Shown: positions 1 to 3,000, counted from the first letter of the stretch. The stretch is DNA of 64,000 nucleotides from Bacteriovoracaceae bacterium (GCA_048264885.1 JBLXCO010000002.1:1-64000); one strand, 5' to 3'. Numbers are program-made.

Positions 1-3000
1 GCAAAATGAACTCACCAAGGGAGAGCTAAGCAATTAGAAAGTCAAAAGAAGTGAGTTTAAAAGGATAGGCTTGAGCACTGAAGGATAAAAAGTGTAGCCC
101 CACGGTAGTGGGGCAGTTTTTATCATTCATCACTATTGCCATCATCGCGTTTGTAATTATCAAGAAAATCTTTTTTAAATTCGCGAAAGCGATCTTCAAG
201 AATGGCCTCTCGAGCTCTCTCGGCAAGGGACTTGTAAAAAGCAATATTGTGCTCGGTGGCCAAAATTTGCCCCAAGATTTCATTGGAATCAAAGAGGTGC
301 TTGATATAGGCACGAGTAAAAGTCTTATTCGAGTAGTTATCAAGATTAGGCTCAATAGGAAAAAAGTCTCGGCGATAGTTTCTGTGCTTAATGCGAATTT
401 TTCCTCTATTAGTAAAGAGCGTTCCCCCGCGGGCAAACTTGGTTGGAATGATACAATCACTCATATCAACGCCATATTCCCAGATCATCAGTAGGTCTTC
501 TGGATTGCCCACACCCATCACATAGCGCGGTTTATCTTTAGGCATCAAAGGGGCCGTGTAGCTGACAATTTGCTCCATCAGTTCTGGACCCTCACCAACG
601 GAGACTCCTCCAATAGCGTAACCAGGCAGGTCTCTTGCAACCACTTCCTCAAGGCACTCACGGCGATAATCATCGTAGGTTGAGCCCTGGATAATTCCAA
701 AGAGCGCTTGTTCAGGATTAGTCCACGTCTTGATACAGCGATCAAGCCAGCGGTGTGTGCGATCCATGGAGTTTTTGGTGTACTCGCGCGTGGCCGGATA
801 GGGAATACACTCATCAAAGGCCATCATAATATCTGAGCCTAGATTTTGCTGAATTCCAATTGAAGTTTCGGGTGAGAGAAGAATCTTCTTACCCTTGTGA
901 TCGAGAAATTCGGCGCCTTCTTCTTTGATCGACTTCTTTTGGAGAGAGAAAACTTGAAAGCCTCCGGAGTCGGTGAGAATCGGCCCGCCCCAACCCATAA
1001 ACTTGTGAAGACCGCCGGCCTTTTTAATGAGCTCAGAGGTGGGCGATAGGTGAAGATGGTAGGTATTTGAGAGAATGATTTTTACATCCATATTCTCAAG
1101 GACCATCGGCTGTAAGGCCTTGATGGCGCCATGGGTACCCACAGGCATAAAAACGGGCGTGGGGATGACTCCGTGAGGAGTGATGATTTCACCAGCGCGC
1201 GCGCCAGTGTGTTTATCAACGTGTACGACACGAAACGAGAAATGTTTTTTGACTTCGTCTTGAATGGCCATGAGGTTCCAAATTGCTAGAGTTCACCAAT
1301 AAAGAAAGATGGGTCCCTTTGTTCCACTGCTTGGATGGCCTTGTCAAGAAACTGACTGAAAGTAGGTAATTTTGATTGGGTTTCTTTTCTCAGTGCCTGC
1401 ATAAAAGGCAGGAGCTCGCGGCCAAAGGGATAGCTGTCTCCACCGAGTGCTTCACCGCCAAGAGAGCGCAAGAGATTGGACATTTCTTTAATTTGCTCTT
1501 CGTTTTGAGTCGAGAGGAATGTGGAGCGCGGCCAAATCTCGGCAAAGGCTTCGGCCTCACGGGAGCGATTGCCATTCCAAGTGCCAGGTATCTGCCCTTT
1601 AAAGAGTGAGTCGATAATATTTGTCGCATCGTCTCTGAGGGTGAGAGGACCACTTAGAACGTAGGAGTCGCCATCTTTTGAAAGTAGGGGAATCATCGCT
1701 ACTTCAAAGCGCTGCTCAATCTGATACTCGGCCACGACATAGAGCTGGTCACCATAGGTTCTGAGAAAGAGTCGCTCTTTCATAAGTCCCTTAAGGTTTG
1801 TGGCCAATTCCTCACGGGCTTGAATGGGTGCTTTAATAAAAGGCCCAAAAGTGAGCGCCGCTTCGCCAAGGGATTCAATTGAGAGCGTGAGGGTTGAGTT
1901 AAATACCTTAAGCGCTTCTTCAAGGGCGAGCGGACTTGGATTATTGGTGGGTTTTTCTAGAAAACTGGCCAATTCCGGGTAGCGATGAGGCAGTAGCGCA
2001 TTAGTGGCCAACTGGCTTTGCCAAAAACTGACCAATGCGCCGATTTTTTTGTGTTCAAAAATCAAAGGAGCACTCACCTTATCGGCCTTAAGGCGAAGGC
2101 CGGTGAGGTCCTCTTTTGGGAGAATGCGCCAGGTGCTCCATTGATTGAATGCGCGTGCAAAGGGGCGCTCTTCCTTGGTCGGGGTCTTAAAAGCCTCAAC
2201 CGGCCATGGGCCCTGGGCACTGAGCTTTAATAGATCTGAAGATAAGAGTGCAAGACCAATAAAGAGGGGAATGAGAATAAATTTTCCAACGGCATGTCTC
2301 CAGGTCGCCGGGGCCGTCCACTTCGTACCCGTTAAAACATCACTTAAAGGTCTACCTGCCCACAAAACGGGAAGAAAAAAAATAGGCAGGGCCAGGCACA
2401 CAAGTACCAGTGGCAGGCGCAGGAGCGCTTTAATTCGTTTTCCAACAAAACCCCCTTGATCGCGGTAACCTTGAATCAAAAGACCCAACGGTCCGCCAAA
2501 GAGCAGGGCCTGGATTATTTCAAGGGCAAACCACAGCACAGTGAAAAAAGCGATGAGGCCCAGAAGCTCTTTATCTAGTAATGGGGTGATGGCCTCATGA
2601 GTGACAAGTTCTTTGAGCTTATCAATCCATGGGGCCAAAATCTCAATGGATTTAGCTTGCCACTCTTTTACCTGCTCTGTCGGGGCACTTTGATAGCCCA
2701 GATAAACGATGGCACTGGAAAAGAAGACCGAAAAGAGCCGACCTACAAAGCCTGGGGGGTTAAAGTCTCGCACCCGGGTTCTTTTAACTGGGGCAAGCTT
2801 GGGGCCGCGAGCTCCGGCTCGAACAGGACGCTTTGCCTCTCTCTTAGGGCGATCGTCTTCACCAAAATCAATATCTTCGCTCAATTTTGGAGCTTTTACT
2901 GGGGCCTTAGGGGCAGCTTCGGCCTTGGGGCGAGGCTCAGGCTCAAGTTGCTCCTTTGATGGCTTTTCATTCTCACCAGTTTCTGTCGCAATCAATCTGG

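What a model noticed while it worked through the whole genome (the two positions that open the first line are those of the whole stretch)
123..1271. Second, stand-alone TGT with altered RNA-binding face
Besides the queA-linked tgt (C2:408784) the genome has a second tRNA-guanine transglycosylase with intact catalytic aspartates but fixed changes around the RNA contact region, and this copy has also lost three Zn-binding cysteines. It likely inserts a deazaguanine base into a different RNA than the four GUN tRNAs. A TGT with another RNA specificity would be new biology and a possible RNA-labelling tool.
Evidence so far: Found in 29 of 30 family genomes, 69-85% identical; two tgt genes in 5 of 5 genomes tested. 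In 28 of 28 aligned copies DSGG and the second Asp are kept, while DMFDCVLPTRNAR reads DMSDCIIPTK[FYWH][AG]R. Neighbours vary and include no Q-pathway gene. Full Q pathway present. Search 43 empty; 46 (listing) showed no such paralog.
(Added by a program. Inside this text positions count along the whole contig: contig position 1 is position 1 of the stretch shown here. "Call 12" and the like, gene names such as g00115 and contig names such as C1 are that model's own, and its searches are not shown. The text may have been shortened before it was handed on; [...] marks where a part breaks off. The agent that wrote the report below was given it as the finding of a first reader that could run no searches.)

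Follow-up and report, generated by a model that had tools for sequence, protein, structure and literature searches.

The report
Second tRNA base-swapping enzyme subfamily
This gene is an extra, strongly conserved copy of the enzyme that swaps a guanine in RNA for the queuosine precursor; it belongs to a subfamily found beside the ordinary copy in several bacterial phyla, and it likely marks a different RNA than the ordinary copy does.

Summary
Observation confirmed: window 123-1271 (minus strand) encodes a 382-aa second TGT, 49% identical to the queA-linked copy. It is found in 58 of 60 Bacteriovoracaceae genomes and is under strong purifying selection (dN/dS about 0.01-0.09). It is not family-specific. 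It belongs to a wider clade ('TGT-B') in Geobacteraceae/Desulfuromonadaceae (likely G. sulfurreducens GSU1175), some Myxococcota, Planctomycetota and others. 42 of 45 such genomes hold a second TGT, and the exceptions sit at assembly gaps. Catalytic and preQ1-pocket residues are intact, so queuine salvage is unlikely. Clade-wide changes lie elsewhere: the beta-lid 'SHxDG' motif is lost and the stem-gripping insertion is strongly basic (+5.4 versus +1.1). The residues recalled as reading U-G-U are mostly kept. Best reading: preQ1 insertion at a U-G-U in a differently shaped RNA (0.4). The substrate is not shown. No paper on this clade was found in 10 searches, and the scan's earlier findings cover other TGT variants only.

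The parts
123..1271 (-). tgt-B: second tRNA-guanine transglycosylase, 382 aa (P0001)
960..971 (-). DSGG motif; D101 = Z. mobilis D102 (acid/base)
873..917 (-). beta-lid of insertion 3 (residues 119-133); the ordinary S-H-x-D-G motif is absent
   Evidence: motif in 0 of 112 clade copies, 68 of 68 ordinary copies
807..815 (-). D153-E-C155 = D156/C158 of the guanine/preQ1 pocket
588..611 (-). GGVSVGEG; V225 = V233 (preQ1-type pocket, not queuine-type)
429..467 (-). DMSDCIIPTKFAR: nucleophile D272 (= D280), K278 (= R286), R281 (= R289)
354..413 (-). basic stem-gripping segment of insertion 8 (residues 287-306) with R293 (= E. coli K285) and R300 (= E. coli K292)
327..344 (-). degenerate Zn site (L310, N312, N315 in place of three Cys); the fourth ligand H341 at 249-251 is kept
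97..114 (-). GC-rich hairpin with T tail 8 nt after the stop codon; terminator-like on both strands (consensus match only)
1286..3469 (-). upstream, probably co-transcribed gene: 727-aa FHA-domain membrane protein (family-level neighbour, no known link to RNA modification)

Best explanation
The gene encodes an intact, separately evolving TGT (subfamily 'TGT-B') that likely swaps a guanine for preQ1 in a U-G-U loop, but likely on an RNA stem-loop that the queA-linked TGT does not serve. Shown: fold, catalytic and preQ1-pocket residues, cross-phylum clade, co-occurrence with an ordinary TGT, purifying selection, and fixed changes on the two RNA-binding insertions. Inferred: (1) chemistry as in bacterial TGT, with D272 forming the covalent RNA intermediate, D101 as acid/base, and preQ1 entering a V233/C158-type pocket; (2) it still reads U-G-U, because the first-shell residues match those of single-copy ordinary TGTs; (3) it grips the RNA stem in cis through a much more basic insertion 8 and has given up the lid that in other TGTs touches the tRNA body from the partner subunit, which would suit a hairpin outside the tRNA L-shape or a shifted register. 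The target RNA is not identified.
For: Active site: D102, S103, D156, C158, Q203, G230, V233, E235, M260 and D280 equivalents are invariant in 112 of 112 clade copies (residue roles from passages of PMC5699537 and PMC4425180). The model matches Z. mobilis TGT at TM 0.93, rmsd 1.3 A. Not redundant: 57 of 58 family carriers and 42 of 45 non-family carriers hold a second TGT. All four 'B-only' genomes lack the ordinary copy at an assembly gap: G011 and G203 also lack queA and yajC; in G218 and G235 queA ends 47 and 552 bases from a contig end. The queA-linked copy in carriers shows no decay of its reading residues. dN 0.006-0.107 against dS 0.28 to saturated in 13 pairs. A family-level duplication was rejected in the thorough tree test (p-AU 0.005). 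RNA face: insertions 3 and 8 are the parts that bind the anticodon loop and stem (passage of PMC10164549). Segment 287-306 has net charge +5.4 in both halves of the clade against +1.1 in 68 ordinary copies, +1.6 in 122 diverse representatives and +2 in E. coli. R293 and R/K300 are kept in 112 of 112 and align with E. coli K285 and K292, whose change to Asp abolishes the covalent intermediate (PMC13416341 text parts 2-3). The lid motif is in 0 of 112 clade copies and 68 of 68 ordinary ones, and in 1 of 120 hits not selected by motif. K52, T285, R289 and D267 equivalents are kept. IPTR[YF]xR also occurs in single-TGT cyanobacteria and Omnitrophota.
Against: No substrate was found. There is no conserved neighbour across phyla, no riboswitch or ncRNA nearby, and no GUN tRNA gene in the neighbourhoods scanned. 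Anticodon-like UGU hairpins are not enriched in this genome (7 against 14-15 in shuffles). RNA-contact residues vary widely among ordinary TGTs that all act on GUN tRNAs (PMC13416341), so a changed face need not mean a changed substrate; basic residues at K285/K292 are exactly what E. coli TGT uses on tRNA-Tyr. 20 of 122 ordinary representatives also reach charge +4 or more. The roles of K52/T285/R286/R289/D267 in reading U33 and U35 are recalled, not read in an accessible paper. With 86 diagnostic columns removed the clade splits in two. The likely G. sulfurreducens ortholog is non-essential with no clear fitness cost in Tn-seq.
Confidence: 0.4

Rival explanations
1. Division of labour on the same tRNAs: TGT-B inserts preQ1 at G34 of some or all GUN tRNAs (a subset, precursors, or under particular conditions), using an E. 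coli-like in-cis grip.
For: It passes the Tgt equivalog cut-off. First-shell residues match those of single-copy TGTs. The clade groups next to single-copy Omnitrophota/Kiritimatiellota TGTs. QueA is present in 53 of 55 carriers, as one gene in 52; the two matches in G212 cover the two halves of one gene. The basic residues match those E. coli uses on tRNA.
Against: No carrier was shown to have lost the ordinary copy. The ordinary copy is not degraded in carriers. GUN anticodon loops look the same in carriers and non-carriers, so no special substrate calls for a helper.
Confidence: 0.3
2. Changed base reading: TGT-B modifies G34 of tRNAs with another base at 35 (for example Cys GCA, Ser GCU, Phe GAA), which would extend Q-type wobble modification beyond NAY codons.
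For: Fixed changes line the helix after the nucleophile: L283I in 112 of 112, aromatic at 287, N290 replaced in 109 of 112; in this family also V282I and R286K (R at 286 in 119 of 122 ordinary representatives).
Against: R286 is kept in all 120 motif-unselected non-family hits. I283 with Y/F287 occurs in single-copy TGTs. The TGT-methyltransferase fusions, by contrast, have replaced both arginines, which is what a rewired pocket looks like.
Confidence: 0.15
3. TGT-B pairs with the ordinary TGT as a heterodimer, a bacterial parallel of QTRT1/QTRT2.
For: It always co-occurs with the ordinary copy, and the dimer hot-spot residues F92/W326/Y330/H333 are conserved or conservatively changed (hot spot from PMC5395182). 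In two Geobacteraceae genomes the two genes lie about 4 kb apart.
Against: Both copies keep all catalytic residues, unlike QTRT2 (PMC6165067). The genes are usually unlinked (408 kb apart here). The ordinary copy looks self-sufficient.
Confidence: 0.07
4. Queuine-salvage enzyme for the same tRNAs.
For: Some carriers lack QueC (14 of 55), and three of four such genomes tested have a QPTR/YhhQ transporter.
Against: V233 and C158 are kept in 112 of 112; queuine-inserting enzymes have V233G and C158V. 41 of 55 carriers have QueC. A preQ1-type enzyme can still take queuine at high concentration (PMC10723273).
Confidence: 0.04
5. DNA-modifying enzyme like DpdA, or a decaying duplicate.
For: The surface patch is strongly basic, and this copy has lost its Zn ligands.
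Against: The pocket motif is the preQ1 type, not the preQ0/DpdA type (PMC10164549). Length and fold are those of bacterial TGT. No dpd-like gene was among the recurring neighbours scanned. Selection is strongly purifying.
Confidence: 0.04

Closest known systems
Bacterial tRNA-guanine(34) transglycosylase Tgt (EC 2.4.2.29; TIGR00430; Z. mobilis and E. coli enzymes)
   Same: Fold (TM 0.93 to 1ozm), catalytic aspartates, preQ1 pocket, dimer hot spot, 46-49% identity; databases name these proteins Tgt.
   Different: Found beside an ordinary tgt and usually away from queA-yajC; lid motif lost and R77 no longer conserved; insertion 8 far more basic; Zn cysteines lost in this copy.
Queuine-inserting TGTs (eukaryotic QTRT1; Chlamydia-type)
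   Same: Same catalytic scheme.
   Different: V233 and C158 are kept here, against G and V in the eukaryotic enzyme.
QTRT2, non-catalytic partner subunit
   Same: A second TGT-like protein in one cell.
   Different: QTRT2 has lost both catalytic aspartates; TGT-B keeps them.
DpdA (TgtA5) and archaeal TgtA: TGT paralogs with other nucleic-acid targets
   Same: Precedent that a second tgt can mean a new target (PMC5699537).
   Different: Those use a preQ0 pocket and extra domains or insertions; TGT-B scores 114 against a cut-off of 350 on TIGR00432.
TGT fused to an MnmC2-like methyltransferase (PF05430; undescribed, noted by earlier scan reports)
   Same: Also an extra TGT in deltaproteobacterial-type genomes.
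   Different: Separate clade; fused; R286 and R289 replaced. G036 carries all three types.

Membership tests
Bacterial Tgt, tRNA G34 (TIGR00430) | Score above the equivalog cut-off | tested here: met
   478.9 vs 306.75 bits
Bacterial Tgt, tRNA G34 (TIGR00430) | TIM-barrel TGT fold | tested here: met
   pLDDT 91.4; TM 0.93, rmsd 1.3 A to 1ozm
Bacterial Tgt, tRNA G34 (TIGR00430) | D102, S103, D156, Q203, G230, D280 | tested here: met
   112 of 112 clade copies; roles from PMC5699537 passage
Bacterial Tgt, tRNA G34 (TIGR00430) | preQ1 pocket V233 + C158 | tested here: met
   V225, C155; 112 of 112
Bacterial Tgt, tRNA G34 (TIGR00430) | Structural Zn site C318/C320/C323/H349 | tested here: not met
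   L310/N312/N315/H341 in this copy; kept in 46 of 61 family and 51 of 51 other clade copies; also missing in 21 of 122 ordinary representatives, so not strictly defining
Bacterial Tgt, tRNA G34 (TIGR00430) | Dimer hot spot F92/W326/Y330/H333 | tested here: met
   F91/F318/Y322/H325
Bacterial Tgt, tRNA G34 (TIGR00430) | Lid motif S-H-x-D-G type and R77 (empirical feature of ordinary copies) | tested here: not met
   motif 0 of 112 vs 68 of 68; R77 15 of 112 vs 68 of 68
Bacterial Tgt, tRNA G34 (TIGR00430) | Residues that read U33 and U35 (K52, D267, V282, T285, R286, R289; roles recalled) | tested here: inconclusive
   K51, D259, T277, R281 kept; V282I and R286K in this family only; the roles could not be read in an accessible paper
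Bacterial Tgt, tRNA G34 (TIGR00430) | Exchanges G34 of tRNA-Asp/Asn/His/Tyr for preQ1 | not testable with these tools
   needs an assay
Queuine-inserting TGT (QTRT1/Chlamydia type) | V233G and C158V | tested here: not met
QTRT2-like inactive subunit | Loss of D102 and D280 | tested here: not met
Archaeal TgtA (G15) | TIGR00432 cut-off and C-terminal C1/C2/PUA domains | tested here: not met
   114.2 vs 350 bits; 382 aa, Pfam TGT only
DpdA (DNA) | preQ0-type pocket motif with bulky residues after GGh; dpd gene cluster | tested here: not met
   GGVSVG is the preQ1 type; no dpd-like family among the recurring neighbours scanned
TGT-MnmC2-like fusion | C-terminal PF05430 domain, R286/R289 replaced | tested here: not met

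The most novel reading that the evidence does not exclude
TGT-B is a dedicated enzyme that writes preQ1/queuosine into an RNA site never described in vivo: a non-tRNA U-G-U hairpin, a shifted position in a tRNA loop such as tRNA-Thr(UGU), or G34 of a non-GUN tRNA. It has done so for a long time in Geobacter, anammox bacteria, planctomycetes and predatory Bacteriovoracaceae.
Probability: 0.5. Interest if true: 0.8.

Novelty: new variant of a known kind. Interest (0 to 1): 0.58.

Why it matters
Earlier second tgt copies turned out to have new targets (DpdA on DNA). Labelling work has hinted at non-tRNA targets of bacterial TGT whose identity was never found (passages of PMC4425180 and PMC8136771). 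This subfamily has a likely member in a genetically tractable organism (G. sulfurreducens GSU1175, non-essential), so the question can be tested directly. A TGT with another RNA preference would also give RNA-TAG labelling a second handle. At the least, these genes carry the ordinary Tgt name in databases although they are a distinct subfamily.

Tried and rejected
Single-sequence structure prediction failed (pLDDT 34.9); it was repeated with an alignment. No RNA holder was listed for the gene, which says nothing on expression. Rfam found nothing in the window and one tRNA-Leu in 16 loci; ARAGORN found tRNA-Leu in 2 of 53 non-family loci and one tRNA-Arg among the family loci. No neighbour family is shared across phyla. 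The search for longer forms gave mostly ordinary or methyltransferase-fused TGTs, with one TGT-B-type motif in a 919-aa protein among 120 listed, so no informative fusion. GUN loops of carriers and non-carriers did not differ in the 150 of 198 pattern matches shown (class II tRNA-Tyr not covered). No enrichment of anticodon-like UGU hairpins, and none in tmRNA. Apparent 'B-only' genomes were rejected as assembly gaps. The quick one-clade test did not reject a family-level duplication (p 0.516), but its free search was beaten by the constrained one; the slower 46-row test rejected it (p 0.005). The GVG[LF]PED pattern hit 32 of 151 genomes of the Geobacter phylum; the matches were not checked as TGT, so this count is not used. 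Complex prediction was not run, because any TGT pair would likely pass by likeness to solved dimers. Zn loss, K264N, F279S and R286K were rejected as clade markers. Ten paper searches found no description of this clade. Three papers were not held (a human TGT-RNA structure paper, a 2024 deazaguanine review, a queuine-salvage paper); the review could mention such paralogs. The highlighted RNA-contact residues in Fig. S6 of PMC13416341 are a picture and could not be read.

Full report
1. Observation. The ORF at 123-1271 is on the minus strand and encodes 382 aa. It passes the Tgt equivalog model, and its alignment-based model matches Z. mobilis TGT at TM 0.93. The genome has two TGT matches; the other lies in queA-tgt-yajC-secD at C2:408784 and is 48.9% identical. 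Database names of close relatives place the organism in Bacteriovoracaceae. Z. mobilis numbering was mapped from the HMMER alignment, and E. coli numbering from a direct alignment.

2. Family distribution. In 60 family genomes drawn across 60 genera, 58 hold the paralog. One of these (G041) has internal stops, and some are split over contig ends. The misses are G016 (66% complete) and G058. 57 of the 58 also hold another tgt match. Over 20 genomes where I aligned both copies, the paralog is the more conserved: 79.0% against 72.7% mean identity, higher in 173 of 190 pairs, which are not independent. dN was 0.006-0.107 against dS of 0.28 to saturated in 13 pairs.

3. It is a cross-phylum subfamily. 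In the same phylum, all six genomes of family f6 carry a related second copy. It was not seen in the TGT copies I read from 24 genomes of other families; I did not read every copy. Searching with an f6 copy returned Geobacter, Desulfuromonas, Trichloromonas and Geoalkalibacter proteins at about 60%. A DNA pattern scan (120 loci from 6 of 64 parts of the collection) added Myxococcota, Planctomycetota including Kuenenia, Desulfobacterales, Spirochaetia and Marinimicrobia. The same pattern also caught single-copy ordinary TGTs of cyanobacteria and Omnitrophota. Trees separate the two groups: the clade has support 0.984 in FastTree, SH-aLRT 98 on 92 rows and 93 on 46 rows. With 86 diagnostic columns dropped it splits in two, though a 16-row part holding this gene keeps 98. 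Grouping this family's two copies together was rejected in the slower test (p-AU 0.005) but not in the quick one (0.516).

4. Always a second copy. 42 of 45 non-family carriers have two or more TGT matches, while five motif-matching controls outside the clade have one each. The 18 partner copies read from those carriers plus two more are of ordinary type, with some divergent ones in Myxococcota and Planctomycetota. The four carriers without an ordinary copy are assembly gaps. QueA was found in 53 of 55 carriers and QueC in 41 of 55. QueC-less carriers include two single-contig genomes, G056 and G213. Three of four QueC-less genomes tested have a QPTR transporter. So the enzyme does not need de novo synthesis, but it sits in cells that can obtain a precursor.

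5. Model-organism member. In Geobacteraceae the gene lies between frdC and mazG and encodes 368 aa. G. sulfurreducens GSU1175 'tgt-1' is 1107 nt and follows mazG (GSU1174), while GSU2619 'tgt-2' lies beside queA (supplement 3 of PMC5585712, rows seen). I infer from length and neighbour, not from its sequence, that GSU1175 is TGT-B. Both genes are non-essential by that table's rule: 13.6 and 10.8 insertion sites per kb, with log2 ratios for GSU1175 of -0.18 to -0.42.

6. What is kept. All catalytic and base-pocket residues are invariant in 112 of 112 distinct clade sequences, 61 family and 51 other. V233 and C158 mark a preQ1 pocket rather than a queuine pocket (PMC4425180 passage), and GGVSVG fits the preQ1 pattern rather than the preQ0/DpdA one (PMC10164549 passage). 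K52 (K or R), D267, T285 and R289 equivalents are kept. Most of the 51 non-family sequences were picked by a pattern that fixes 283-289, so I checked a set not chosen by motif: all 120 best hits read D[ML]FDCVIPTR[YF][AG]R and keep three Zn cysteines. That these residues read U33 and U35 is recalled; I could confirm from a paper only that insertions 3 and 8 give GUN specificity and stem contacts.

7. What is changed. F279S and R286K are fixed only in Bacteriovoracaceae, and V282I is in 4 of 51 other clade copies. K264 is variable everywhere, and Zn loss affects 15 of 61 family copies and 21 of 122 diverse ordinary TGTs (the 122 were defined by having R289). The clade-wide changes are different ones. 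The lid motif of insertion 3 is absent (0 of 112 vs 68 of 68), and R77 is no longer conserved (15 of 112 vs 68 of 68). L231V, G236, L283I and an aromatic residue at 287 are fixed or nearly so, and N290 is replaced. Segment 287-306 carries net charge +5.4 against +1.1; 108 of 112 clade copies reach +4 or more, against 20 of 122 ordinary representatives. 11 of 21 discriminating columns fall in the two insertions (p=0.014; boundaries set by me). R293 and R/K300 align with E. coli K285 and K292, which hold the tRNA stem and are needed for the covalent intermediate. The lid carries E. coli R112, the one cross-subunit contact (PMC13416341, parts 1-3 of 7 read). The third E. coli stem residue, R320, is D in this family. 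By contrast, the TGT-methyltransferase fusions have replaced both R286 and R289.

8. Mechanism. An enzyme that is kept under strong selection, was not found without the ordinary copy, and leaves that copy undegraded most simply does a different job. The chemistry points to preQ1, the first shell to U-G-U, and the surface to a stronger in-cis grip on a stem with less use of the lid. I therefore favour a U-G-U in another RNA context (0.40) over division of labour on GUN tRNAs (0.30), another anticodon base (0.15), a heterodimer (0.07), queuine salvage (0.04) and DNA or decay (0.04). Against this, no substrate candidate emerged: the four GUN tRNAs here are ordinary, GUN loops do not differ between carriers and non-carriers in the matches shown, neighbours give no lead and UGU hairpins are not enriched. 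RNA-contact residues also differ widely among ordinary TGTs.

9. Known or new. It works like bacterial Tgt and passes its HMM, but G34 specificity is untested and two empirical features are not met, so I file it as a variant and not as a confirmed G34 enzyme. Ten searches of the held library (listings, with passages read as cited) showed no description of the clade. Subscription papers are largely missing, and a 2024 review could not be read. Earlier scan notes concern a fused TGT and a Zn-free single TGT, not this clade; no look-alike locus was on record.

10. Verdict. Real, conserved and broader than first reported; function inferred. New variant of a known kind, interest 0.58.

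Noticed in passing
L063:2137-4158 (G036), also L116, L123, L125, L127, L128: A third TGT type, about 670-700 aa, fused to a PF05430 methyltransferase and lacking both arginines after the nucleophile. It was seen in several families of this phylum that showed no TGT-B; G036 carries all three types.
   Followed up: partly
L257, L258, L259, L269 (Myxococcota-type genomes G213-G216): The ordinary-type TGT there is divergent (GGLGLGE in place of GGLSVGE, V233L), and 11 related genomes have QueA but no QueC match. The base they insert is unclear.
   Followed up: partly
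P0280-P0282, P0286-P0294, P0296: Recurrent ~850-aa fusions of a Mur ligase (Mpl-like) to an ordinary TGT in metagenome proteins.
   Followed up: no
L149, L180, L195, L199, L208: A TGT group with GG-SLGKSK and LGIGEVDD in place of the usual pocket motifs (record titles include UBP9 and Candidatus Bruticola); possibly another base specificity.
   Followed up: no
window 1286-3469 (-): 727-aa FHA-domain membrane protein with a long acidic/low-complexity linker, directly upstream of tgt-B in 35 of 61 family loci; function unknown.
   Followed up: partly
window 15228-15935 (+): QueE-like radical SAM gene (below the TIGR03365 cut-off), 14 kb from tgt-B; Q-pathway genes are scattered in this genome.
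   Followed up: partly
own genome C1:179080, C3:190045, C2:275565: tRNA-Ala(GGC) and tRNA-Pro(GGG) have C32 with G38, and tRNA-Leu(GAG) has U32 with G38; a tRNA-Arg(UCG) is present and no CCG one was called.
   Followed up: no
L158:5919-6872, also L133, L152, L179, L188, L204: A solo Cas6-domain gene lies next to or near tgt-B in six Desulfuromonadales-type loci.
   Followed up: no
L062 (G041:C2:81218-82333): TGT-B copy with internal stops and a second-frame match, in a 97% complete genome: a pseudogene or an assembly error.
   Followed up: partly
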